A stretch of DNA of 24,000 bases from an uncultured archaeon (GTDB lineage: Archaea > Asgardarchaeota > Heimdallarchaeia > Heimdallarchaeales > Heimdallarchaeaceae). The position numbers and the translations under genes were made by a program. Location of the stretch: NCBI GenBank assembly GCA_964590855.1, contig CAZPXJ010000004.1, positions 27,715 through 51,714 of the forward strand. Reading direction: 5' to 3'. This document shows positions 3,524 through 23,527 of this stretch, in pieces (positions within the stretch are counted from its first letter, which is position 1; every line of letters starts with the position of its first letter). The notes under the pieces were generated by a model, which saw only the letters and a list, made by a program, of their open reading frames with translations, had not been told where the DNA came from and ran no database searches.

Positions 3524-4270
3524 CTACTTCTCATCCACAATAGTTACACTCGGCGATTGGTTCCCTACAACGAAAATATATCTGTAGAGAGTAACCAAGT
3601 TTTCTCCTTCAGGAGTACTCAATGTAACTGTTTTTGTCTGCTTAGTACCATGGGTACTAATCTCTTCAATAGTCCCGTGCTTACCCATCCATCTACCACT
3701 TGTTACGAAACCATAATTACCAACTTTGAGCTCATACTTCTCAATAATCTTCTGATCTGGAAGTGAAATCTTTAAGGTATCATGGGTCAGATAGTTAGTT
3801 GTAGCGGATTCTTCTTCACTAAGAACTATATTTCTTCCATCATGTAGATTAAGTTGGATCAAACCATCTTTGATAGCTGTCTTATTCCTAATCTGGCACA
3901 ATTTCTCTCTTGTTTCAGCTTCTTTAATTGAAACAGGTCTTAATCCCTGTTTAAGTGCGTATATCATTCTGTAATGTTTTTGCATCTTGGGTAAGGATAG
4001 AACATCCATGAATCCTAAGGGATGTTTTCTATTTGTTTTAACCTTACCATCAATTACAACATTACGTTCGAATAAAATACGTTTAACTTCACTCATATTG
4101 CGTGCATAATGAAACATATCTCTTAGTAATATTGCAACTGGGATACAATCATCTGCAGAATGGGGACCAGGAGCTGGTCTCACTGCATATGTGAAAGCTT
4201 TCTTGTGAATAGGAATATGTTTAGAAACAACATATCTCTTTAAGTGTCGTTTTCCTCCACCTTTTGTCAT
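3524..4270 (-). CDS. rps4e: 30S ribosomal protein eS4
   Basis: MTKGGGKRHLKRYVVSKHIPIHKKAFTYAVRPAPGPH is an eS4 N-terminus. The ATG overlaps the rpl24 TGA stop (ATGA) and is preceded by GAGGAGGAAT. Confidence 0.92.
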   Translation of the reverse strand: MTKGGGKRHLKRYVVSKHIPIHKKAFTYAVRPAPGPHSADDCIPVAILLRDMFHYARNMSEVKRILFERNVVIDGKVKTNRKHPLGFMDVLSLPKMQKHYRMIYALKQGLRPVSIKEAETREKLCQIRNKTAIKDGLIQLNLHDGRNIVLSEEESATTNYLTHDTLKISLPDQKIIEKYELKVGNYGFVTSGRWMGKHGTIEEISTHGTKQTKTVTLSTPEGENLVTLYRYIFVVGNQSPSVTIVDEK

Positions 4271-4854
4271 GATGATTCCTCCTCTGGTTTAACATCTGAT
4301 TCTTCCTCTGATTCTTCCTCGATCTCTTCATCGAGTTCATCGAGTTCATCCATTTCAATATCTTCGAATTCTTCATCGAGCAATTCTTCACTTTCTAAAG
4401 CATCAATATCATCAAGAGCTTCTACAGTTTCTTCCTCGTCATCGAATATACCTTCGGTTAATTCCTCTTCGGTAATCTCTTTCTTTGAACGTCTTTGAAT
4501 AATCTCTCTTCTTCTCTTGTCTCTTAGATTTAGAGAAGTAATTATGATGTTACTTGGATGAACAGGAAAACTAACTATGGTTCCATCAGCTTTTTCTTTA
4601 CTATGTCCCTCAACATGAATAGAATATCTTAGAGGGAGAACACGTATCACTTTTCCTTTGATTTCTTCATCTTTTGAAATGTTTTTGTAAACTATCACTT
4701 TGTCATCTTTATGAACTGGGAGACGTTTAATACCATATTTTTCTCTTAATGTATGAGATAATAGAGCAGTCATTTTTCGATTTCTTAAATGATAATCTGC
4801 TTTAAAATGGCTCTTTCTTTGTTTTCGAGGTTGTTTTGATTGTGTTTGCTTCAT
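4267..4854 (-). CDS. rpl24: 50S ribosomal protein uL24 with an acidic C-terminal extension of about 69 aa
   Basis: KQPRKQRKSHFKADYHLRNRKMTALLSHTLREKYGIKRLPVHKDDKVIV shows the uL24/eL26-type KOW domain. The track start at 4863 is a GTG abutting the rpl14 stop. I prefer the ATG at 4854, downstream of AGGTGA. The tail runs from ...EEELTEGIFDDEEE... to ...DVKPEEESS. Confidence 0.88.
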   Translation of the reverse strand: MKQTQSKQPRKQRKSHFKADYHLRNRKMTALLSHTLREKYGIKRLPVHKDDKVIVYKNISKDEEIKGKVIRVLPLRYSIHVEGHSKEKADGTIVSFPVHPSNIIITSLNLRDKRRREIIQRRSKKEITEEELTEGIFDDEEETVEALDDIDALESEELLDEEFEDIEMDELDELDEEIEEESEEESDVKPEEESS

Positions 4855-4863
4855 CTTTTTCAC

Positions 4864-9077: not shown

Positions 9078-10091
9078 ATGCCTACTACAAAAGATTACTT
9101 AATTAAAAAATATCAAAGAAATGCTATAGATGAATATCTAGCAAAAGAACTAAAAAATGCAGAATACGGGGGAGTGGAATTACGACGAACACCACTTGGT
9201 GATCGTGTTATACTTCGAGTCGGGAGAGTGGGTTTAGCTATAGGTGGAAGAGGCAGAAATATTCACAGAATTACTGAAGCCTTACGTGAAAGCTATGGTC
9301 TCGACAATCCACAAATTGAGGTAACTGAAGTAGAAAACCCTGAAATTGATGCAAGAATTATGGCTTTTAGATTAGCTTCTTCTTTAGAACGAGGACGTCA
9401 TTTTAGAAGAAGTGCTCATGGTATTATCAGGCGTATTATAGCTAGTGGAGCTAAAGGTGTAGAAATTAAAATCAGCGGAAAAATAACTAGTCAAAGAGCA
9501 AGAGTAGAAACATTCAGAGCTGGATTTGTTGCAAAAGCAGGAGATCCTGCAGACACTTACGTAGATTTAGGTCAAGCTCAAGCTCTTATTCGAAGAGGAT
9601 TATTAGGGGTTCGAGTTAAGATAATGCGTGGCGATGCTATTCTTCCTGATGATATCTCAATCGAAGCAGAACCAACATCAACATCTATGATAGTTGATAC
9701 TGGTGCAGAAGAACCAGAAATCATAGAAGAAATTAGTGAAGAAGTTCTTGAAGAATTGGAAGAATATCCAGATATTGAAGAAGAATTAGACGAAATAGCA
9801 GAAGAGATTACCAAAGAAACCAAACCAAAAGTCAAAGCAAAGACTAAAGCTGAAGATGAACTGAAAGAACTAGATGAAGTTGATAAAGCAGCAAAAGCTA
9901 AACCAAAAGCTAAAGAAAAGAAAGCAGAGAAGAAAGAAGAAAAGGTAACGGAAGAAGTAAAAGAGACCAAAACCAAAGCTGCAAAAACAACTAAAACTAC
10001 TAAGGCTTCCAAAGAAGATAAGAAAGAGGATAAAAAAGAAGAAGCCAAAGAAACTAAATCAAAAGCAAAAGCCAAAGCAAAAGAGGAGTAA
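9078..10091 (+). CDS. rps3: 30S ribosomal protein uS3 with a C-terminal E-rich then K/A/E/T-rich extension of about 140 aa
   Basis: The N-terminal ~195 aa carries the KH domain and the uS3 C-domain (LGDRVILRVGRVGLAIGGRGRNIHRITEAL...RRGLLGVRVKIM). It continues in frame into EEPEIIEEISEEVLEELEE...KAKTKAEDELKE...KSKAKAKAKEE. Confidence 0.9.
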   Translation: MPTTKDYLIKKYQRNAIDEYLAKELKNAEYGGVELRRTPLGDRVILRVGRVGLAIGGRGRNIHRITEALRESYGLDNPQIEVTEVENPEIDARIMAFRLASSLERGRHFRRSAHGIIRRIIASGAKGVEIKISGKITSQRARVETFRAGFVAKAGDPADTYVDLGQAQALIRRGLLGVRVKIMRGDAILPDDISIEAEPTSTSMIVDTGAEEPEIIEEISEEVLEELEEYPDIEEELDEIAEEITKETKPKVKAKTKAEDELKELDEVDKAAKAKPKAKEKKAEKKEEKVTEEVKETKTKAAKTTKTTKASKEDKKEDKKEEAKETKSKAKAKAKEE

Positions 10092-10613: not shown

Positions 10614-10697
10614 ACTATATAATATATTAACACAAATGATTATTAGTTTAAATATTAAAAAAAAGAACATCTTATGCTACAGTGATTGTGTCTTCTC

Positions 10698-13172
10698 ATG
10701 AATCAACCAGAATACCTTAATCATCCATTAATTAAGCAAGATAAAGTAGAAGCTAGATTATATCAGCAAACTCTATTTGCTTCATGTATTAAGGAGAATT
10801 CTCTAGTTGTTTTACCTACAGGTCTTGGGAAAACCATATTATTTCTAATGATCACAGCACACCGTTTAGAGAAATTTCCTGAAGGAAAAATCGTATTTTG
10901 TGCTCCTACTAAACCTTTAATGGATCAACATGAGCGAACAATGAAAGAGTCATTGAACATTAATCCTGAAAGTATAGTTCAAGTTTCAGGTCAAATTGAT
11001 CCAAAGAAGAGAAAAGAAATATGGGATGGCGGTCAAGTATTTGTTTGTACCCCCCAAACTATTCAAAATGACATAATTCAAAGACGAATAAAACTTGAAG
11101 AAATCGTCTTTATGTGCCTTGATGAAGCACACAAAGCAGTAGGTGACCACAGTTATGTTTTCATTGCTGATCAGTATCACAAAAAAGCTCAAAATCCTCT
11201 TTTACTAGGTTTAACTGCAAGTCCGGGATCAAAAATTGAACGTATTGACGACGTTCAGAATAATCTCCATATCACCAATGTAGAAATGAGAGATGAAAGT
11301 TCCAACGATGTTAAACAATACATTCATGAAATTGAAGAGAACTGGGAGATAATCCCTCTTGCTGAGGAGTTCAGAGTAATAATTGATACTTTAAATAATT
11401 TGTTCAAACTTGTATTAGAAGGTTTGAAGGAATTAGAGATAATCAATTCAGCTCTACCAAGAAACAATCCTAGAAAGGAACTTCTGCAATTAAGAGGAAA
11501 AGTAAATAAAAAATTCAGCGACAGTTCAGAGGAAGATAGATCTGAATTCTTTAGAGCAATGTCCTTAGTTGGTAATTCAATTCGTTTATCTCATGCTATT
11601 GAGCTCATAGAAACCCAAGGAATCCCTTCACTTAGCAAATACCTTGAAGGTCAAATTAATGACATAAAATTTGGGAAAGGAAGTAGAGCCCTTAAGGATT
11701 TGATGTTTTCTGAGGAGATGCGACAAGTCGTTGAAACAGTACAAAAACTTCAAGAAGAAAAAGTAATTCACCCTAAAATTGAGAGGCTTAGAGAACTTAT
11801 TTCTGAAGAACTAAAAAACAACCCAAATAACAGAATTCTAGTTTTTGCACATTTTAGAGTAACAGCTAAAATGATCAGTGATGAACTTAACAAGGAAAAT
11901 ATTGTAAAAAGTCATTGGTTTGTTGGTCAAGCGACCAGCAAAGGTGACAAGGGATTATCTCAAAAGGAGCAAATAGAAATTATGCAAGAATTTCGTGATG
12001 GAACCTACAATGTATTAGTTTCAACCAGTGTAGCAGAAGAAGGATTAGACATAGGTGAGTGTGAACTTGTGATTTTCTATGATGCAGTTCCCAGTGCTAT
12101 ACGATTAATACAGAGAAAGGGAAGAACTGGGCGAAGAAAAGAGGGTAAGGTAATTATGCTGATTGCCGAAGGGACTAGGGATGAGGCTTACATGTGGGCC
12201 TCAAAAAGACAGGCTCAAAAAATGAAGAAATTGGTTAGGAAATTAGATCAAACTCTTGATACTAGAAAGCAACCCAAGAAAAAACAACAAAAGGGTATCG
12301 TGGACTTTCTTAAAGAAGCAGAAAAAGTTGTTGAAACAGTTGATTTGAAAGAAGAAACTGAATTAGAAGTAGAAGAAGTAGAAGAATCAAAGGAAATTGA
12401 ATTTGAAAAAGAGGAAGGAAAAATCAAGGTTATTTGCGATAGTAGAGAGAGAAATACTACCGTAATTAAGGAATTGATGAACAAAGGTGTAGAACTTGGT
12501 TTCGAAAGATTAGATTTAGGAGACTATATTTGTTCAGATCAAATAGTCGTTGAAAGAAAGACAGAAGATGATTTTGTGAAATCAATTATCGATAAGAGAC
12601 TATTTACCCAAGCAAAAGCTCTGGTTGAGAGTTGCGCTAAACCAGTAATGATTATTGAAGGTGATCTGAATATTTTTAGTTCATCACTTCACCCTCATGC
12701 AATTACTGGAGCATTAACATCTCTCGCTACAGACTTTAGATTGCCAATTATACATACAAGAAATCAAAAGGAAACTGCAGAGATTCTATTTTCACTTGCG
12801 AGAAGGGAACAAGAGGAAAGACAGAGGAGAATTAGTATAGGGAAACGAAAAGGGATGGGTCTCAAAATACAGATGGAAGAAACCATTGCTTCACTTCCAC
12901 ATATTGATCATAAGATTTCTAATAGACTGCTGAAGCATTTTGGTTCCATCAAGAATGTAATGACCGCAAATCGAGAGGATTTCTTTGAGGTTAGAGGGAT
13001 AGGTGAAAAAATCGCCAATGACATTATTGATTACATCTATAGCAACTATAATGAAATAGAAACGGGTGAAGAAGCTCGAACTATGAAAGAAGACCTCGAT
13101 TTCTTGAGAAAAGATAAGAAAGACAAAACTTCTAAGAAGTCAACGAACGGAGAGAGTCAACAAGAGAACTAA
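10698..13172 (+). CDS. hef: Hef: SF2 helicase fused to ERCC4/XPF-type nuclease and HhH2
   Basis: Helicase motifs are present: LPTGLGKT, CLDEAHKAV, LTASPGS, QRKGRTGRR. The nuclease region has the GDx(n)ERKx3D signature (CDSRERNT...LGDYICSDQIVVERKTEDDF). The C-terminal HhH is LLKHFGSIKNVMTANREDFFEVRGIGEKIANDI. The first ATG is at 10698, whereas the track starts at a TTG at 10686. Confidence 0.9.
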   Translation: MNQPEYLNHPLIKQDKVEARLYQQTLFASCIKENSLVVLPTGLGKTILFLMITAHRLEKFPEGKIVFCAPTKPLMDQHERTMKESLNINPESIVQVSGQIDPKKRKEIWDGGQVFVCTPQTIQNDIIQRRIKLEEIVFMCLDEAHKAVGDHSYVFIADQYHKKAQNPLLLGLTASPGSKIERIDDVQNNLHITNVEMRDESSNDVKQYIHEIEENWEIIPLAEEFRVIIDTLNNLFKLVLEGLKELEIINSALPRNNPRKELLQLRGKVNKKFSDSSEEDRSEFFRAMSLVGNSIRLSHAIELIETQGIPSLSKYLEGQINDIKFGKGSRALKDLMFSEEMRQVVETVQKLQEEKVIHPKIERLRELISEELKNNPNNRILVFAHFRVTAKMISDELNKENIVKSHWFVGQATSKGDKGLSQKEQIEIMQEFRDGTYNVLVSTSVAEEGLDIGECELVIFYDAVPSAIRLIQRKGRTGRRKEGKVIMLIAEGTRDEAYMWASKRQAQKMKKLVRKLDQTLDTRKQPKKKQQKGIVDFLKEAEKVVETVDLKEETELEVEEVEESKEIEFEKEEGKIKVICDSRERNTTVIKELMNKGVELGFERLDLGDYICSDQIVVERKTEDDFVKSIIDKRLFTQAKALVESCAKPVMIIEGDLNIFSSSLHPHAITGALTSLATDFRLPIIHTRNQKETAEILFSLARREQEERQRRISIGKRKGMGLKIQMEETIASLPHIDHKISNRLLKHFGSIKNVMTANREDFFEVRGIGEKIANDIIDYIYSNYNEIETGEEARTMKEDLDFLRKDKKDKTSKKSTNGESQQEN

Positions 13173-18986: not shown

Positions 18987-19547
18987 ATGGCGAAAGTTAT
19001 GCAGTCGAAAAAGGTAAAAGTAGACTTACAAGTAAACACCAAGGGAGAGGAAAAGGTTAACAGAATCATCTGGTGTTCAAGAGGAGAACATTGGAATAAA
19101 AGCAACTGGAAAAGAATAGACAAACCATGGACAAGAATAAAAGACGATTCTCTAAAGGAACATTTACTAAACCAACTATGGGAAGAAGTGATGGATTTAG
19201 GGAGAAGGAAAGAACCAGCATCACTAGGATATGCACACAGGTTAGAGAATTGGGAAATAGTTTCTATCATTGGGACAATGACATTTTTCCAATTGAATGA
19301 GTATCATATAGAGCAAACCAAGTTCGACTTATTTTATGCAAGATACAGAGTATTCGATTGGATAGCAACAAATCTACATGGAAGGATGGAAGGATATCCA
19401 GAAGAAGATGAAGGAGAGAGAATAAGGGCAACATGGGTAATGTGTAAATTCGCAGAAATCTACCTAAATCTGGAAGGAGATGTAAAAGCTTTCTCGGAAT
19501 ATCTGAGGTTATGGGACTTAGAGCCAGAATATGAGGAGAGAGAGTAA
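18987..19547 (+). CDS. Hypothetical W-rich protein (ORFan A), first gene of the purine-skewed cassette
   Basis: The 186-aa ORF is followed 1 nt later by the next gene (TAAAATG). I recognise no family. A TATA-like TTTTATT at 18961-18967 lies about 23 nt upstream of the ATG, so a leaderless transcript is possible. Confidence 0.55.
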   Translation: MAKVMQSKKVKVDLQVNTKGEEKVNRIIWCSRGEHWNKSNWKRIDKPWTRIKDDSLKEHLLNQLWEEVMDLGRRKEPASLGYAHRLENWEIVSIIGTMTFFQLNEYHIEQTKFDLFYARYRVFDWIATNLHGRMEGYPEEDEGERIRATWVMCKFAEIYLNLEGDVKAFSEYLRLWDLEPEYEERE

Positions 19548-19548
19548 A

Positions 19549-20205
19549 ATGAGTTCTGAGAACAAGGAAATCAAACAATGTCCAGACTACTGTGAAAAAA
19601 TAAAACATGAGCAATGTGACTGTCCATTTTGTTTTGAAAGAGAAGAGAAGGAAGAAAAAGAACCTTCCTTCACTATTTCAATAAAATATAAGGAATTTGT
19701 AGAAGAGTGGTTAAAGGAAGAAAAGATAAACCATACAATGGAAGTAGTTGAAGACTATACAAAGAAACTGGTAGAAGAAACTGGAGAAGAATTACTAAAC
19801 TATTTCTATCATAAGATTAAGGATGTATTCATTTTCGAAATATCGAATATTCACCAGTTAGAACTAATAGATAAGACAATAAGGAAAGCAGAGTGTGGAT
19901 ACTGCTCAAAGATATTGATAGTGGATTGGGATAGTTATTCATACGACCACGTAGAGTGTGGAGATTGTACATCACAAGGGAAGGAAGCATTTGTGTGTAA
20001 TGAGTGTGCAAAAACTAATGCTTACATCTGTCCTGTGTGTAAGAAGAAGGAGAACCTGTTCCCACCACCAGAGATGTGGACAGACCATCCAAACCATTGG
20101 AGCGACTGTGTGACTGAGGAAGACGAAGAAGAAAATCTGGAGGAAAGCACCCGTGGAAAGGAGAGAAGAGAGAAAAGAGGGATAAAACCCTCTTCCTCTT
20201 CTTAA
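19549..20205 (+). CDS. Hypothetical Cys-rich multi-zinc-finger protein (ORFan B)
   Basis: The N-terminal cluster is CPDYCEKIKHEQCDCPFC. The C-terminal module is CGYC-x17-CGDC-x9-CNEC-x7-CPVC, four CxxC pairs. I chose the ATG at 19549 immediately after the ORF A stop, whereas the track start at 19531 overlaps ORF A. Confidence 0.6.
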   Translation: MSSENKEIKQCPDYCEKIKHEQCDCPFCFEREEKEEKEPSFTISIKYKEFVEEWLKEEKINHTMEVVEDYTKKLVEETGEELLNYFYHKIKDVFIFEISNIHQLELIDKTIRKAECGYCSKILIVDWDSYSYDHVECGDCTSQGKEAFVCNECAKTNAYICPVCKKKENLFPPPEMWTDHPNHWSDCVTEEDEEENLEESTRGKERREKRGIKPSSSS

Positions 20206-20221: not shown

Positions 20222-21433
20222 ATGAAAGAACACACACAGAAAAGGATGGATGAATTCTACAAAGATAAAAAAGAACTGAAGGAGATAGAACAGAAGAAGG
20301 GATTGAAGAAATACAAAGTGATAGACATAAGATTGAAGGGAACAAACAAGACAGAGAAAGTAAATCATGAGGGAAAGGAACATGGAAGGATGCAAGTACT
20401 GAAAGGCAATTGTATAGATCCAGTGAGAGGATGTCCAAGTTATGCTAACCCAGAGAAACCTATGTGTCCATGGGATTGTTACTCGGAAGAAGCAGTAAGG
20501 AGATACAAGATAGATTTTGGCAAACCAATATCAATGAAACTCAAAGAAAGACTGTTAGTAAAAGACATGATAGGAACTCAATCGGATTGGATAAGGATAG
20601 GAGTAGACGGAGCACCATCATGGAATTGGGAATTAACAGTAAGATGTGCAGAGTTAGTAAATCTGGTACAGAAAGTTCCAGTGATAATAACGAGGATGTG
20701 GAGAACAATAACGATGAAGCAGTTACAGAGGCTGATAGATATAGGAACGATAATACATATAACAGTCTCAGCAGCAGACAGAGAAGAGATACTAGAAAGG
20801 AACCTAGAGATAGCTAAGGATATCAACATAATGGGAGGAAAAGTAGTATTGAGAATAGTAACATTTGCTTACAGACCCGGGGACTGCAGAGAGAAAAAAC
20901 AAGAGAAAATGATGTATCAAGAAGAGATACCAGTACTAGAACAACCAGGGAGATTGATGAGGGTAACAGAGAATACTAAGAGGAAAAATTCCCTTTGGGT
21001 TGAAATAGTCCATATAGCTGGAGGTGGTGGTTCTCCAGAAAGATACTACTTGAGAGAATTACATAAAAATCTCCCAAAAAACAAGGTTAGAACATTTTAT
21101 AGTAGAAACAAGGAAATGATGTGTTCCTGTTCATCATGTGCAAAAATCAAAGAAAAAAATGGGATCAGAATTAAATCTGTTGCAGATATCAGTAGATTCT
21201 TCGATGAGATTGACTATATGTATGATTCAAGAGAACATTTCGTGAACTCACACTCAGATGAAAGAGAACAAATACAAAAAGAGAATGTAGATATGATAGT
21301 TAAGAGATTAGAAGCAGAAGAAAGAAATGCAGAGAGATTGAATATAGCACACAACTTGGGAGAGGATATAAGTTTCTACAAGAAATGGAGAGCTAGTTTA
21401 GAGGGACTATCTCACAAAAGAAAAGAAAGTTGA
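20222..21433 (+). CDS. Hypothetical protein with Cys cluster C-x10-C-x3-C-Y and an alternating beta/alpha core; possibly radical-SAM-fold / DUF5131-like (ORFan C)
   Basis: The 403-aa ORF has GGAGG 9 nt upstream. It contains IDPVRGCPSYANPEKPMCPWDCYSEEAVRRY. Hydrophobic strand-like segments follow (WIRIGVDG, VPVIITRMW, IIHITVSAADRE, VVLRIVTFAY), separated by helical stretches. A second cluster, CSCSSC, lies near the C-terminus. Confidence 0.6.
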   Translation: MKEHTQKRMDEFYKDKKELKEIEQKKGLKKYKVIDIRLKGTNKTEKVNHEGKEHGRMQVLKGNCIDPVRGCPSYANPEKPMCPWDCYSEEAVRRYKIDFGKPISMKLKERLLVKDMIGTQSDWIRIGVDGAPSWNWELTVRCAELVNLVQKVPVIITRMWRTITMKQLQRLIDIGTIIHITVSAADREEILERNLEIAKDINIMGGKVVLRIVTFAYRPGDCREKKQEKMMYQEEIPVLEQPGRLMRVTENTKRKNSLWVEIVHIAGGGGSPERYYLRELHKNLPKNKVRTFYSRNKEMMCSCSSCAKIKEKNGIRIKSVADISRFFDEIDYMYDSREHFVNSHSDEREQIQKENVDMIVKRLEAEERNAERLNIAHNLGEDISFYKKWRASLEGLSHKRKES

Positions 21434-21442
21434 TTAAGAAAA

Positions 21443-23527
21443 TCATACTGTTCCGTTTCTGTTTCTATGTCTTTTTAGTGTTATGACAATGAACGGTATT
21501 ACAAGTACTAATGAGAAAAAGGAATAGTAGAAATTATTACCTTTCTCTAGTGGGTTCTTCTTTAAAGGATACAGATCATACGAGTTTGCTGAACCATCTA
21601 TACTATAGTTTCCTGTTCCTTGATAATTGTCCCAAAAATTCCCTTCTTCTTCCTCTATCTGGTACCAAGTATTATTGGTACCATCATCCAATGCCTGTAT
21701 ATTTCCATTATTATTATCTATAAATGCATTATGATGAACTATGTTTCTTGTTGACTGATAACCAAGAATAACTGCATAGTTTGAATTTGTCTCAAACCAA
21801 TTATAACTGATTTCACTATCTAAAACCTCGGTGCCCCTGATACCAACAGTATTATCTCTAAAACGGTTCTCATAAATTGTAAAATAATGACTGAATATAA
21901 GAACCACTCCATTTTCATTATCAAATATAGAATTATCTTGAATTCTAACATCAATGGCGGTAGTAGAGTAAATCCCTGCTGAATTATTACCAATATTCGG
22001 ATTAGGATAATGGGATGAGATTACATTGTTTTTTATCAAAATCATACTACCAAAATTCAGATAAACTCCCAATGTATTCCCTGAAAATTCATTGCTTATG
22101 ATGTTACAATGGTCTGAAAAATGAAGCTGCAAACCAAAATGAATGTTATTATGAATTTCATTTTCATTCAAATCAAGATATTCAGATAAGCTTGCGTAAA
22201 TCCCGTACTCATTATTAATAATTTCTGAATTGGTAATAGAACAACCATCGGATTGATCGAATAAAGCTCCATAAGTTGAGATATTGCTTTTACTTGAGGT
22301 TATAGTACAATTATTGCTACCATAAACAAAGAAACCGTAGAGAGTGACATATACATTACAGTTTTGTATTATTGTATAATCACAAAATATGAGCCCTATA
22401 CCCATGCTTGTATCACGAACTGTCATGTTCTGGACGGTTACTTGTAAACATGATACAAGAATCACTTGACCAAAATTCCCTTCAACTATGAAATTTGTAC
22501 CTTTATTTCTAAAAAAACCTAGAAGTTTGTTATTAACAAAATTATCCTCAACTATCCAATTCATGATTTGGGATTTCTCAATTTCTTCAACAGTAAGACC
22601 ACATTTGGTAAAATTATTTCTTGCAATGTAGCATTCATCCGATTTTCTTATATCAAGACCTTTGATGCAATTGTCAACCAAATTACTACTAACATTGATT
22701 TTTGATGAAGAGACTATTTTGATTGCTGCTGCTCCTCTATCAATCTGGTTGTATAGAATGTTACAAGACATTGCATTATCCAAAAATATTCCCACACCAG
22801 ATGAATTTAAGCATAAGTTGCTTAACAAGTCACAGCTCTGCGAATAACTTATACTAGCAAATTGTTCTACATCTGCAATATTGCTTCTTACAACCTTTTG
22901 ATGACTAGAAAAAGCAGAGAACAAAAATGTGCTTGAGTTTGAGCATTGATTAGAATCTATTACATTGTTTGTAGCATCCCGAATAGAGAAACATTCACTG
23001 CTTATGTTTTCAAAACTATTATTCACGAATTGACAATTATCAGTACCCAATCTTGTCATTATTGCAGTTTTAGAATCTGAGAAGAAATTGTCTTCAATTT
23101 GCAAAAAAGTAGAATTTTCTATATATAAGCTGATACCTTGATGAAAATTCATGAATGAGTTATTAGTCAGAATTCCAGTGTTATTGGCAATATTCCTAAG
23201 AAAAACCCCATTTGTACTAGAGTTAAATATACAGTCTTTAATAATGAAGTGACTATTCGTATTCTGGATTCTAATTGCATAAGGGTCATTAGTTGATATC
23301 CATAGGTCTTCTAGTATAAAAGGGTCTGAATATGAACCGTTACCACTAAAACCATATGAAACAAAAGCAGTGTCATTATCAATATAGATAGAATCTGTAA
23401 ATGAAAAAATTTGAGGAGATAGAGTTGCTCTTTTTTCGTGCGGTTGAGCTATTTCACCATTCGAGAAAGGGCTATTTATGATGGAAACCACCAAAATTAT
23501 GCAAAATAATTTGGTAATTCTTTTCAT
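21443..23527 (-). CDS. Secreted/membrane-anchored surface protein with right-handed parallel beta-helix (PbH1/NosD-like) repeats
   Basis: The 694-aa product has an N-terminal signal-like MKRITKLFCIILVVSIINSPFS. Many repeats of about 22 aa have the form I..N.I..N..GI.L..S..N.I..N. The ending NFWDNYQGTGNYSIDGSANSYDLYPL is NosD-like. A C-terminal TM segment FFSLVLVIPFIVITL is followed by KRHRNR. N-x-S/T sequons are numerous. Confidence 0.8.
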   Translation of the reverse strand: MKRITKLFCIILVVSIINSPFSNGEIAQPHEKRATLSPQIFSFTDSIYIDNDTAFVSYGFSGNGSYSDPFILEDLWISTNDPYAIRIQNTNSHFIIKDCIFNSSTNGVFLRNIANNTGILTNNSFMNFHQGISLYIENSTFLQIEDNFFSDSKTAIMTRLGTDNCQFVNNSFENISSECFSIRDATNNVIDSNQCSNSSTFLFSAFSSHQKVVRSNIADVEQFASISYSQSCDLLSNLCLNSSGVGIFLDNAMSCNILYNQIDRGAAAIKIVSSSKINVSSNLVDNCIKGLDIRKSDECYIARNNFTKCGLTVEEIEKSQIMNWIVEDNFVNNKLLGFFRNKGTNFIVEGNFGQVILVSCLQVTVQNMTVRDTSMGIGLIFCDYTIIQNCNVYVTLYGFFVYGSNNCTITSSKSNISTYGALFDQSDGCSITNSEIINNEYGIYASLSEYLDLNENEIHNNIHFGLQLHFSDHCNIISNEFSGNTLGVYLNFGSMILIKNNVISSHYPNPNIGNNSAGIYSTTAIDVRIQDNSIFDNENGVVLIFSHYFTIYENRFRDNTVGIRGTEVLDSEISYNWFETNSNYAVILGYQSTRNIVHHNAFIDNNNGNIQALDDGTNNTWYQIEEEEGNFWDNYQGTGNYSIDGSANSYDLYPLKKNPLEKGNNFYYSFFSLVLVIPFIVITLKRHRNRNGTV

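What the first reader, a model, noticed from the sequence alone, without database searches (positions are those of the whole stretch)
20222..21433. ORFan C: radical-SAM-fold-like protein with an unusual C-x10-C-x3-C-Y cluster
The segment IDPVRGC-PSYANPEKPM-CPWDCY-SEEAVRRY resembles the N-terminal Fe-S motifs of two families as I recall them. One is the SplB-like 'DNA repair photolyase' radical SAM proteins (..NPYRGC.h.C.YCYA..). The other is the phage Gp37/Gp68 DUF5131 family (..GC..vS.GC.nCYAe). In both, three Cys are followed by Tyr. Here, however, the spacing is neither CxxxCxxC nor C-x6-C-x2-C. Downstream, buried strand-like segments alternate with helices: WIRIGVDGAPS, VPVIITRMW, IIHITVSAADRE, VVLRIVTFAYRPGD. 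That is the pattern expected for a partial TIM barrel of that superfamily. A lysine/glutamate-rich N-terminal ~60 aa, a second Cys cluster (CSCSSC) and a coiled-coil-like C-terminus are additions. If the resemblance is real, this would be a divergent Fe-S enzyme of unknown chemistry in a foreign cassette.
Basis: inference. Interest (0 to 1): 0.65.

Follow-up and report, generated by a model that had tools for sequence, protein, structure and literature searches.

The report
Divergent radical-SAM-like enzyme, odd cysteine motif
This gene in an Asgard (Heimdall-type) archaeal chromosome encodes a member of an unnamed protein family that is a distant cousin of the iron-sulfur "radical SAM" DNA-repair enzymes, has a stretched version of their cysteine motif, and travels on viruses and mobile elements; its chemistry is unknown.

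Summary
ORF 20222-21433 (+) is a real 403-aa gene with the quoted motifs. It is not an ORFan. It has six close Heimdallarchaeial homologues, and a profile search finds 172 protein clusters. C71-x10-C82-x3-C86-Y is the family hallmark: about 113-118 of about 120 aligned members keep each Cys. Seven members carry the canonical CX3CX2C in the same columns, so the window motif is that motif stretched in both gaps.

An AlphaFold model (pLDDT 79.6, core above 90) gives a (βα)6 partial barrel with the Cys loop between β1 and α1. Foldseek top hits are almost all radical SAM enzymes. Profile-profile tests link the family to SPL-like radical SAM proteins (E 2.9e-6 through canonical-motif members) and to DUF5131 (E 9.2e-5). 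The window protein itself passes no curated Pfam or NCBIfam threshold.

Relatives sit in virus-like or mobile contexts, next to or fused with DNA methylases, ligases and repair genes. The window copy has lost the family's C-terminal CX3CX2CX3C motif; "CSCSSC" is its remnant. It has gained a coiled-coil tail.

Verdict: an unannotated, non-canonical branch of the SPL/DUF5131 group. Iron-sulfur binding, SAM cleavage and substrate remain untested.

The parts
20222..21433 (+). Gene for the 403-aa radical-SAM-like protein (stop codon included)
   Evidence: ORF. GGAGG lies upstream of the ATG. Six homologues at 50-65% identity. The chance of 403 stop-free codons at the window's base composition is about 4e-14.
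20222..20299 (+). Residues 1-26: K/E-rich N-terminal helix, shared only with the two closest homologues
   Evidence: Alignment A1. Predicted helix 2-26. K+R 37% and D+E 23% over residues 1-30.
20312..20410 (+). Residues 31-63: conserved basic N-terminal motif YKVIxIRLKGTNKTEKVxH..GR.., placed before β1
   Evidence: Invariant in A1. Conserved as 'IRxxxNxKT' in distant members, including those with the canonical motif. pLDDT 97 for residues 31-40.
20411..20482 (+). Residues 64-87: β1 and the enlarged cluster-binding loop, with C64 (subfamily-specific), C71, C82, C86 and Y87. This is the proposed [4Fe-4S]/SAM site.
   Evidence: Column conservation. Spacing census and canonical CX3CX2C members in the same columns. 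The loop lies between β1 (68-70) and α1 (87-93), with pLDDT 87-96. It aligns with the Cys motifs of RlmN, SPL-like proteins and DUF5131.
20423..20953 (+). Residues 68-244: (βα)6 partial TIM-barrel core. Motifs: RIGVDGAPS (β2, aligned with the GGE-type motif), PVIITRMW (β3, 'TK/TR' motif), ITVSAAD (β4), LRIVTF (β5), Q227, LEQPxR (β6).
   Evidence: AlphaFold model with pLDDT above 90 across the core. Foldseek hits to radical SAM enzymes. hhalign alignments to SPL-like proteins are co-linear through β1-β6.
21122..21160 (+). Residues 301-313: degenerate remnant (C-S-C-S-S-C-AKIKEKN) of the family's C-terminal CX3CX2CX3C motif
   Evidence: At the four motif columns the family shows CCCC in 50 members and xCCC in about 37 of about 108, while the window shows S-C-I-N. 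No remnant exists in other frames. pLDDT is below 60 here.
21164..21430 (+). Residues 315-403: lineage-specific helical, coiled-coil-like tail, absent from all homologues
   Evidence: Alignment A1. Predicted helices 320-334, 345-373 and 379-402. No similarity to the downstream gene of the closest locus. The chance of 103 stop-free codons is about 7e-5.
19531..20205 (+). Upstream cassette gene (224 aa): Cys-rich N-terminus, K/E-rich linker, and a C-terminal domain with four CxxC pairs (Zn-ribbon-like)
   Evidence: The C-terminal domain is 64% identical to a 99-aa ORF at the same position in locus L002. No Pfam family.
18987..19547 (+). First cassette gene (186 aa), function unknown
   Evidence: 54-56% identical to the first gene of the L002 cassette. 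No Pfam, NCBIfam, PHROG or PADLOC hit.

Best explanation
The gene encodes a member of an unannotated protein family. That family is a sister-level branch of the spore-photoproduct-lyase-like / DUF5131 (Gp37/Gp68) group within the radical SAM superfamily.

Shown here:
- The fold is a (βα)6 partial barrel.
- The three conserved cysteines C71, C82 and C86 sit in the β1-α1 loop.
- They occupy the same alignment columns as the canonical CX3CX2C cysteines of family members. The first gap is stretched from 3 to 10 residues and the second from 2 to 3.

Inferred:
- The three Cys hold a [4Fe-4S] cluster whose fourth iron binds SAM.
- The reduced cluster cleaves SAM to a 5'-deoxyadenosyl radical, which abstracts a hydrogen atom from the substrate.
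- In the archaeal/viral branch the substrate is most likely DNA (repair or base modification). This rests on the nearest characterised relatives (SPL, phage M6 gp53) and on recurrent neighbourhood or fusion with DNA methyltransferases, ligase, glycosylases and restriction enzymes.

The gene is part of a three-gene cassette of viral or mobile-element origin, inserted among housekeeping genes of a Heimdall-type archaeon. The window copy has lost the family's C-terminal four-Cys motif, a presumed auxiliary metal site, and has acquired a coiled-coil tail. It may therefore work differently from its relatives, or less well.
For: Family and motif:
- 6 close homologues and 172 clusters at E<=1e-3.
- Cys columns are conserved in 112-118 of about 120 members.
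- Spacing census: x10/x3 in 45 members, x6/x3 in 19, x11/x3 in 17, x9/x3 in 9, canonical x3/x2 in 7, x4/x2 in 1.

Fold:
- Model pLDDT is 79.6 overall and above 90 in the core, with β1, Cys loop, α1 and five further βα units.
- Foldseek PDB top hits: PFL-AE 3cb8 (E 7.7e-3, prob 0.99), EpeE, HydE, BioB, LipA, NifB.
- Foldseek BFVD top hit: a phage Radical_SAM protein (E 3.3e-4, prob 1.0), followed by many radical SAM entries.

Sequence links:
- Relatives P0058 and P0015 hit PF04055 over profile positions 4-140 at E 1e-4 to 4e-4.
- Relatives hit the NCBIfam radical SAM mobile pair A/B and PA0069 models weakly.
- A profile of the canonical-motif members finds only radical SAM chains in the PDB: RlmN at E 0.056 and SPL at E 0.7.
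- hhalign: A1 vs A4 E 2.8e-59; A4 vs SPL-like A5 Prob 88%, E 2.9e-6, 137 columns; reversed control E 0.09.
- hhalign: family vs DUF5131 E 9.2e-5; SPL-like vs DUF5131 E 4.1e-4.

Context:
- A virus-like 70-kb contig with DNA methylases and a topoisomerase-like PHROG.
- MT-A70 methyltransferase next door.
- A mobile-element-like gene array with DNA ligase and a second radical SAM gene.
- AlkZ-like, DNA_alkylation and BglII neighbours.
- N6_N4 methyltransferase, Tsp45I and SPL neighbours.
- Fusions to DNA methylase and to ATP-dependent DNA ligase.
- Two copies in one Heimdall genome assembled from a metagenome.

Precedent: viral SPL-like radical SAM enzymes act on DNA (PMC8989533). Motif variants CX4-11CX2C are known within the superfamily (PMC9477430).
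Against: - The window protein itself hits no Pfam, NCBIfam, PHROG, PADLOC or PDB sequence model.
- All links to named radical SAM families are transitive or below curated thresholds: the best PF04055 score among relatives is 22.7 bits against a cutoff of 29.5.
- Foldseek E-values are weak (at best 3e-4) and TM-scores are 0.3-0.5.
- Whole-family hhalign against SPL-like proteins gives only E 0.0015-0.0046.
- The second gap is CX3C. None of the motif variants listed in PMC9477430 changes that gap.
- The Asp of the family's GDPS (GGE-like) motif is Ala in the Heimdall subfamily.
- A fourth subfamily-conserved Cys (C64) lies near the loop.
- The window copy lacks two of the three core C-terminal Cys.
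- The DNA-substrate inference rests on neighbourhoods that differ from locus to locus. A bacterial branch of the family sits in NRPS clusters instead.
Confidence: 0.72

Rival explanations
1. The protein has a radical-SAM-derived fold and binds metal, but it is no longer a SAM-cleaving enzyme. In the Heimdall subfamily the cluster, or a zinc ion, would be fully ligated by C64, C71, C82 and C86. The protein would then serve a structural, redox or nucleic-acid-binding role.
For: C64 is invariant in the 7-member subfamily. The second gap is CX3C rather than the CX2C retained in all motif variants listed in PMC9477430. The acidic residue of the GGE-like GDPS motif is Ala131 in this subfamily. No curated radical SAM model is passed.
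Against: C64 is Cys in only 21 of about 114 family members, whereas the C71/C82/C86 triad is near-universal. The rest of the SAM-site scaffold is retained and aligns with SPL-like and RlmN motifs: the β2 Gly-rich motif, β4 S-x-S-A-x-D and β5. Stretched first gaps are compatible with radical SAM activity in known families (PMC9477430).
Confidence: 0.15
2. The window copy is a decaying or domesticated remnant of a viral gene and no longer catalyses the ancestral reaction. Its C-terminal metal site has been destroyed and replaced by an unrelated coiled-coil tail.
For: The window shows S-C-I-N at the four C-terminal Cys columns, where about 87 of about 108 relatives have three or four Cys. All six close homologues keep CX3CX2CX3C. 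The tail is unique to the window. The region has low model confidence. The cassette is reduced to 3 genes, against 6 in the closest locus L002.
Against: All 80-odd subfamily-invariant core residues are intact in the window protein. The reading frame stays open for 403 codons, including a 103-codon tail, in a genome of about 35% G+C (chance about 7e-5 for the tail). A Shine-Dalgarno-like box and tight operon spacing are kept. No frameshifted remnant of the lost motif exists.
Confidence: 0.15
3. It is an active radical SAM enzyme, but its substrate is a small molecule or peptide rather than DNA, as in the bacterial branch of the family.
For: The 341-aa bacterial members lie inside NRPS clusters beside 2OG-Fe(II) oxygenases. 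Others are fused to TauD or to an amidohydrolase. The cassette neighbours in the window are small proteins of unknown function.
Against: That branch is only about 20% identical to the window protein. The branches nearest to the window protein lie next to DNA methylases, ligase, glycosylases and restriction genes, or in virus-like contigs. The nearest named relatives (SPL, M6 gp53) act on DNA (PMC8989533).
Confidence: 0.12
4. The resemblance is a chance pattern in a lysine/glutamate-rich ORF, and there is no real relation to radical SAM proteins.
For: No direct database hit for the window protein.
Against: There is a large conserved family. The motif is conserved. Canonical-motif members exist. 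The fold model is confident. Fold and profile hits are consistent and almost exclusively to radical SAM enzymes, with clean reversed-sequence controls.
Confidence: 0.02

Closest known systems
Spore photoproduct lyase-like radical SAM proteins (Pfam PF20903 SPL / COG1533 'DNA repair photolyase'; includes phage M6 gp53)
   Same: - The order of motifs is the same: '(R/K)GC...C..CY' loop after β1, Gly-rich acidic β2 motif (NSGExxDS vs RIGxxGDPS), 'L(T/S)K' vs 'I(T)K/R' after β3, 'SFSxNA' vs 'SVSAxD' at β4, and 'RxRID' vs 'LRVVT' at β5.
- hhalign Prob 88%, E 2.9e-6 through canonical-motif family members; E 4.3e-4 to 4.6e-3 for the whole family.
- Both occur in viruses and mobile elements, and SPL-like enzymes act on DNA (PMC8989533).
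   Different: - The window protein does not hit PF20903 or PF04055.
- Cys spacing is CX10CX3C, not CX3CX2C.
- The SPL-like family's other invariant Cys (positions 21, 268, 290 and 292 of P0175) are not shared.
- Our family has its own N-terminal IRxxxNxKT motif and C-terminal CX3CX2CX3C motif.
DUF5131 / phage Gp37/Gp68 family (Pfam PF07505; RadicalSAM.org Megacluster-5-2, CX6CX2C)
   Same: - Both have a 'GC ... GC..CYA' loop with a stretched first gap followed by Tyr-Ala, a β2 acidic motif, and an 'LTK' motif after β3.
- hhalign family vs DUF5131: Prob 59%, E 9.2e-5 over 94 columns.
- Both are typical of viral genomes, including an archaeal virus, and often lie near DNA methylases and CxxC proteins.
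- Both are of unknown function.
   Different: - No PF07505 hit for the window protein; 1 of 80 relatives hits at E 0.009.
- The second gap is x3, not x2.
- Similarity does not extend past β3.
- DUF5131 lacks the C-terminal Cys motif and the N-terminal IRxxxNxKT motif.
Core radical SAM enzymes (PF04055; e.g. PFL-activating enzyme, RlmN, EpeE, BioB)
   Same: - A partial (βα)6 barrel with a three-Cys loop between β1 and α1.
- Best structural matches in PDB and BFVD.
- The RlmN alignment covers the Cys motif, GGE motif and β4.
   Different: - Below every curated threshold.
- Non-canonical spacing in both gaps.
- The GGE-like motif is degenerate (GVDGAPS).
- Single-sequence hhalign against PflA is not significant.
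NCBIfam 'radical SAM mobile pair' proteins A/B (TIGR04471/TIGR04470) and PA0069 family (NF033668)
   Same: These are the only NCBIfam radical SAM models hit repeatedly by family members. They are associated with mobile elements. One relative (P0015) shares a mobile-element-like gene array with a second, canonical radical SAM gene.
   Different: Scores are 14-22 bits against cutoffs of 355-410. The matches cover only the N-terminal 60-90 residues. The window cassette has no second radical SAM gene.

Membership tests
Radical SAM superfamily (PF04055 / SFLD definition) | Literal CX3CX2C motif near the N-terminus | tested here: not met
   The window protein has C71-x10-C82-x3-C86. Only 7 of about 108 scored family members have x3/x2.
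Radical SAM superfamily (PF04055 / SFLD definition) | Three conserved Cys in the β1-α1 loop, homologous to the canonical triad | tested here: met
   C71, C82 and C86 share alignment columns with the CX3CX2C of P0032, P0041, P0043, P0058, P0085, P0093 and P0147. They align with the Cys motifs of RlmN, SPL-like and DUF5131 proteins. The loop lies between β1 68-70 and α1 87-93.
Radical SAM superfamily (PF04055 / SFLD definition) | Pfam PF04055 score above the gathering threshold (29.5 bits) | tested here: not met
   No hit at E<=1 for the window protein. Relatives reach 15.9-22.7 bits.
Radical SAM superfamily (PF04055 / SFLD definition) | Partial (βα)6 or full (βα)8 TIM-barrel fold | tested here: met
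   The AlphaFold model has six β-α units with core pLDDT above 90. Foldseek top hits are radical SAM enzymes with probability 0.97-1.0, though E-values are only 3e-4 to 1e-2.
Radical SAM superfamily (PF04055 / SFLD definition) | SAM-binding motifs (GGE motif after β2, ribose motif at β4, β5/β6 motifs) | tested here: inconclusive
   The family motif RxGxxGDPS aligns with GGEP/MGEP/NSGExxDS, and SxSALD aligns with the β4 'ISL' / 'SFSxNA' motifs. The window has GVDGAPS, with Asp replaced by Ala. No SAM docking was possible.
Radical SAM superfamily (PF04055 / SFLD definition) | [4Fe-4S] binding and reductive SAM cleavage | not testable with these tools
   This needs anaerobic biochemistry.
SPL-like radical SAM (PF20903 / COG1533) | Significant profile match to the family | tested here: inconclusive
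   No PF20903 hit for the window protein. hhalign A4 vs A5 gives Prob 88%, E 2.9e-6. The whole family gives E 0.0015-0.0046. The window subfamily alone gives E 0.022. This indicates a relative, not a member.
SPL-like radical SAM (PF20903 / COG1533) | Family-invariant residues outside the triad (for example C21, C268, C290, C292 of P0175) | tested here: not met
   The A5 invariants have no counterparts in the aligned region or at the C-terminus of the window family.
DUF5131 (PF07505, Gp37/Gp68) | PF07505 score above the gathering threshold; CX6CX2C motif | tested here: not met
   No hit for the window protein. One of 80 relatives hits at E 0.009. Bona fide members score E<=1e-90. hhalign gives E 9.2e-5 over the first three β-α units only. 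The second gap is x3, not x2.
NCBIfam radical SAM mobile pair A/B (TIGR04471/TIGR04470) | Score above the curated cutoff (355/410 bits) and presence of the paired partner | tested here: not met
   The best relatives score 22 bits. There is no second radical SAM gene in the window cassette.

The most novel reading that the evidence does not exclude
The CX(6-11)CX3C families form a previously unrecognised, widespread branch of the SPL/DUF5131 group. At least 172 clusters at 50% identity match, and no Pfam or NCBIfam model covers them. The enlarged, doubly re-spaced cluster loop would support a new radical reaction on DNA, either a modification or a repair, used by viruses and mobile elements of Asgard and other archaea against host restriction or DNA damage. 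The Heimdall chromosomal copies would be domesticated versions. The window copy, which has swapped the auxiliary Cys cluster for a coiled coil, would be a first step towards a new function.
Probability: 0.25. Interest if true: 0.7.

Novelty: new variant of a known kind. Interest (0 to 1): 0.45.

Why it matters
Radical SAM enzymes that act on DNA are rare. Spore photoproduct lyase and one phage thymidine-hypermodification isomerase are the documented cases (PMC8989533). DUF5131, a common phage family, still has no known function.

This work defines a third, unannotated relative of those two. Its cluster motif changes the Cys2-Cys3 gap, which the known variants keep fixed (PMC9477430). It is spread across archaeal viruses and mobile elements, and across bacterial natural-product clusters.

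If active, the family would widen the sequence rules used to recognise radical SAM enzymes. The RadicalSAM.org sequence set is built around the CX3CX2C-motif families, and this family passes no curated Pfam radical SAM model. It would also give a tractable entry point into DNA chemistry in Asgard-archaeal mobile elements.

If inactive, it is an ordinary case of a viral gene decaying in a host chromosome.

Tried and rejected
**Direct searches with the window protein**
- Pfam, NCBIfam, PHROGs, PADLOC and PDB sequences returned nothing.
- tblastn against GenBank phages and PLSDB plasmids found no match.
- An IMG/VR pattern scan found no relative.
- The family profile against PDB sequences returned nothing relevant with A1 or A2.

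**Structure**
- AlphaFold with only 7 sequences gave a poor model (pLDDT 54, Cys loop below 50). It was replaced by the 150-sequence run.
- Cys-Cys distances in the model could not be measured. Coordinates are not exposed.

**Profile-profile comparisons**
- hhalign against single sequences was not significant for E. coli PflA (E 0.28) or for a canonical radical SAM protein from L015 (E 0.17).

**C-terminus of the window protein**
- A frameshift or assembly error was rejected. There is no CPECENQC-like remnant in any frame.
- Fusion of the tail with the downstream gene seen in L002 was rejected (E 0.59).

**Cassette and context**
- A conserved partner gene was rejected. Only L002 shares the two upstream genes. 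Other loci have different, unrelated neighbours.
- No flanking tRNA or direct-repeat attachment sites mark the cassette. There are only short chance repeats, and the single tRNA-Ile lies 5 kb away.
- The overlapping ORFs at 20464-20817 (+) and 20578-20829 (-) look conserved only because they overlap the real gene.

**Literature and record look-ups**
- Full-text searches for CX6/9/10/11CX3C motifs, for 'radical SAM mobile pair', and for radical SAM in Asgard viruses found nothing relevant.
- No contig record for the window protein is on file.
Full report
**1. What is in the window**

ORF 20222-21433 (+) encodes 403 aa. It starts at an ATG preceded by GGAGG. It follows two other same-strand ORFs with a 17-nt overlap and a 16-nt gap: 18987-19547 (186 aa) and 19531-20205 (224 aa).

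The rest of the window is core archaeal chromosome:
- ribosomal proteins L6, L5, S4e, L24, L22 and S3
- a class I aminoacyl-tRNA synthetase
- a Hef-type helicase-nuclease
- aRF1
- glucose-6-phosphate isomerase
- UMP-kinase-like amino-acid kinase
- AspRS
- downstream on the minus strand, a NosD/β-helix protein

The three-gene stretch has slightly higher G+C than its flanks (0.38-0.40 against 0.32-0.36). It also has the strongest purine skew at this end of the window.

The closest homologues are from Heimdallarchaeial genomes assembled from metagenomes. The host is therefore most likely a Heimdall-type Asgard archaeon. This is an inference.

**2. Check of the observation**

All quoted peptide segments are present. 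Cysteines are at residues 64, 71, 82, 86, 142, 222, 301, 303 and 306, which gives C71-x10-C82-x3-C86-Y87.

The protein on its own matches nothing in Pfam, NCBIfam, PHROGs, PADLOC or PDB sequences. It is nevertheless not an ORFan:
- A word-indexed search of 5.8 billion proteins finds six homologues at 50-65% identity.
- A profile of these seven, run against 1.84 billion cluster representatives, finds 172 proteins at E<=1e-3 and 126 at E<=1e-10.

In a 150-sequence alignment the columns of C71, C82 and C86 hold Cys in 113, 112 and 118 sequences. Nearly all other rows are gaps from fragments. The next residue is Tyr in 95 and Phe in 19, followed by Ala in 93 and Ser in 15.

Further near-universal positions are D66, G70, R125, G127, P132, W136, T157, K/R158, D186, R211, Q227 and R244.

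**3. The motif is a stretched canonical motif**

A census of the two gaps across the family:

| Gap 1 / gap 2 | Members |
|---|---|
| x10 / x3 | 45 |
| x6 / x3 | 19 |
| x11 / x3 | 17 |
| x9 / x3 | 9 |
| x3 / x2 (canonical CX3CX2C) | 7 |
| x4 / x2 | 1 |
| other | a few |

Examples of the canonical form are GCPGGCWGCYA and GCSNKCGYCYA. The canonical members are unquestionably in the family. They score E 1e-20 to 1e-58 against the window-subfamily profile. hhalign of A1 against A4 gives Prob 100%, E 2.8e-59 over 253 columns.

They also share two further features:
- the N-terminal 'IRxxxNxKT' motif
- a C-terminal CX3CX2CX3C motif

So C71, C82 and C86 correspond to Cys1, Cys2 and Cys3 of a radical SAM motif. 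Seven residues are inserted in the first gap and one in the second.

Wherever the first gap exceeds four residues, the second is x3.

RadicalSAM.org lists variants from CX4CX2C to CX11CX2C, including CX6CX2C for DUF5131. All keep the CX2C gap (PMC9477430). I found no paper describing CXnCX3C.

**4. Fold**

AlphaFold2 with seven sequences was poor (pLDDT 54). With 150 sequences it gave pLDDT 79.6 and pTM 0.74, with residues 61-250 mostly above 90.

The order of elements is:
- β1 68-70
- Cys loop 71-86
- α1
- β2 123-126, α2
- β3 152-157, α3
- β4 177-183, α4
- β5 207-214, α5
- β6 238-242

This is the (βα)6 partial barrel of radical SAM enzymes, with the cluster loop in the canonical place.

Foldseek against the PDB puts these enzymes among the top hits, at probability 0.8-0.99 but E no better than 7.7e-3: PFL-activating enzyme, EpeE, HydE, BioB, LipA, NifB and TigE.

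Against BFVD the top hit is a phage 'Radical_SAM domain' protein (E 3.3e-4, prob 1.0). It is followed by QueE-like, NrdG-like and SPASM proteins.

I could not measure Cys-Cys distances, because model coordinates are not exposed.

**5. Sequence-level tests against the named families**

Pfam and NCBIfam:
- Among 80 relatives, 4 hit PF04055 and 1 hits DUF5131. All are below threshold.
- P0058 and P0015 match PF04055 positions 4-140 at E 1e-4 to 4e-4.
- The NCBIfam models hit are 'radical SAM mobile pair' A/B and the PA0069 family, again far below cutoff.

PDB sequences:
- A profile of the canonical-motif members finds only radical SAM chains: RlmN at E 0.056, aligned from the Cys motif through GGE to β4, and SPL at E 0.7.

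SPL-like proteins:
- I built an alignment of 49 SPL-like proteins annotated with PF20903 or PF04055. It was seeded from a gene that happens to neighbour a family member.
- hhalign of the canonical-motif subfamily against it gives Prob 88.3%, E 2.9e-6 over 137 co-linear columns.
- The whole family gives E 0.0015-0.0046.
- A reversed-sequence control gives E 0.09 over 18-26 columns.

DUF5131:
- I collected eight bona fide Gp37/Gp68 proteins, including the founders phiE125 gp37 and Che9c gp68. All hit PF07505, the best at E 1.7e-101.
- The family matches them at Prob 59%, E 9.2e-5 over 94 columns. The match covers the Cys loop, β2 and the 'TK' β3 motif.
- SPL-like against DUF5131 scores E 4.1e-4. 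Reversed controls score E 0.1-0.2.

SPL and DUF5131 are grouped in one megacluster by RadicalSAM.org (PMC9477430). The window family is about as close to each of them as they are to each other. I therefore read it as a further branch of that group, not as a member of either.

**6. Peculiarities of the window copy**

Relatives carry a C-terminal Cys motif. All four Cys are present in 50 members and the last three in about 37 more, out of about 108. All six close homologues have A-C-x3-C-P-E-C-E-N-Q-C.

The window protein has Ser, Cys, Ile and Asn at those columns. Its 'CSCSSC' is the degenerate remnant, and no other frame encodes the lost motif.

After residue 314 it has a unique helical tail of about 90 aa. 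The tail is unrelated to the downstream gene of the closest locus. It is unlikely to be open by chance (about 7e-5).

The Heimdall subfamily also has two other traits:
- an extra invariant Cys, C64
- Ala in place of the Asp of the family's G-D-P-S motif

These raise the possibility of altered or lost SAM chemistry. That is treated as a rival explanation.

**7. Context and likely role**

The two upstream genes recur, in the same order, only in the closest locus, L002. There the cassette has six small genes and lies beside LeuRS.

Contexts of other relatives:

| Relative | Context |
|---|---|
| Copies in a Heimdall genome (18H4_34) | Two 94%-identical copies of a two-gene module (234-aa protein plus this gene) on different contigs |
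| P0007 | 70-kb contig of small co-directional ORFs with two DNA methylases; neighbours match PHROGs, including a topoisomerase-like family |
| P0010 | Followed by an MT-A70 methyltransferase |
| P0015 | Co-linear array with a canonical radical SAM gene, an ATP-dependent DNA ligase and DUF2201/VWA genes |
| P0012 | Beside AlkZ-like and AlkD-like repair genes and a BglII-like nuclease |
| P0014 | Near an N6_N4 methylase / Tsp45I pair and an SPL-like gene |
| P0060 | Fused to a DNA methylase domain, in a phage-like contig |
| P0100 | Fused to an ATP-dependent DNA ligase |
| Bacterial 341-aa branch | Inside NRPS clusters, or fused to TauD or an amidohydrolase |

The family is therefore functionally diverse. 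For the archaeal/viral branch, a DNA-directed reaction (repair or modification) is the best-supported guess. The precedents are SPL and phage M6 gp53 (PMC8989533). This step is inference.

No defence-system model matches. No attachment sites or flanking tRNA were found.

**8. Verdict**

This is a real, conserved gene. It encodes a divergent radical-SAM-fold protein whose three-Cys/Tyr motif is homologous to the canonical one but re-spaced. It is related to both SplB-like and DUF5131 proteins and is carried by mobile DNA.

It fails every curated family threshold, so it is not a member of any named family. It represents an unannotated family with a non-canonical CXnCX3C motif.

Cofactor binding, SAM cleavage and substrate are untested. 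The window copy may be functionally altered, because it has lost the family's C-terminal Cys motif.

Interest is moderate. Uncharacterised radical SAM relatives are very numerous. The features that make this one worth a biochemical look are the changed second gap, the link to DUF5131 and SPL, and the setting in Asgard mobile elements.

Noticed in passing
L006 8001-9026; L008 8001-9026; L009 1670-2695: A bacterial branch of the same family (about 341 aa, motif CX6CX3C-F-A) sits inside NRPS gene clusters next to 2OG-Fe(II) oxygenases and a MoCo dehydrogenase. Related members are fused to TauD (P0130) or to an amidohydrolase (P0098). It is probably an uncharacterised natural-product tailoring enzyme.
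   Followed up: partly
L015 4131-4919 and 8001-8810: One co-linear, mobile-element-like array carries both a family member with CX4CX2C (P0015) and a canonical PF04055 radical SAM gene. It also carries an ATP-dependent DNA ligase and two DUF2201/VWA_CoxE genes. This recalls NCBIfam's 'radical SAM mobile pair'.
   Followed up: partly
L010 7275-8933; L011/L001 7295-8954; L012 1775-3433: Heimdallarchaeote genome 18H4_34 holds two 94%-identical copies of a two-gene module (a K/E-rich 234-aa protein plus the radical-SAM-like gene) on different contigs. A third copy lies in another assembled genome. In L010 and L012 the upstream gene appears split into two ORFs.
   Followed up: partly
window 19531-20205 (+): The 224-aa cassette protein has an N-terminal CX3CX8CXCX2C cluster, a K/E-rich linker and a C-terminal domain with four CxxC pairs. 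The C-terminal domain exists as a stand-alone 99-aa ORF in L002 (64% identity). Small CxxC proteins also flank family members and DUF5131 genes in other viral loci.
   Followed up: partly
window 18987-19547 (+): A 186-aa Trp-rich protein with no family hit. It is 54-56% identical to the first gene of the L002 cassette. Function unknown.
   Followed up: partly
window 9078-10091 (+) and 4267-4863 (-): The ribosomal protein S3 ORF is 337 aa, but its Pfam domains end at residue 182, leaving a C-terminal extension of about 150 aa in the window's most purine-skewed stretch. The L24 ORF is 198 aa with its domain at residues 9-125.
   Followed up: no
window 21443-23527 (-): A 694-aa NosD / right-handed β-helix protein with a hydrophobic N-terminus and a C-terminal hydrophobic segment lies immediately downstream, convergent with the cassette.
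   Followed up: no
window 10686-13172 (+): An 828-aa Hef-like protein (DEAD/Helicase_C + ERCC4 nuclease + HhH) sits among translation genes.
   Followed up: no
A5 alignment (SPL-like proteins, e.g. P0175): The metagenomic SPL-like family used as a comparator has four invariant Cys besides the CX3CX2C triad (positions 21, 268, 290 and 292 of P0175). This suggests a second metal site in that family too.
   Followed up: no
L024 1-2265; L028 1-2148; L025 413-2061: Bona fide DUF5131 genes in phages RcapNL and Zirinka lie close to DNA methyltransferase genes. In the haloarchaeal virus PhiCh1 the DUF5131 gene lies close to a 'CxxC motif protein'. This parallels the neighbourhoods of the window family.
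   Followed up: no
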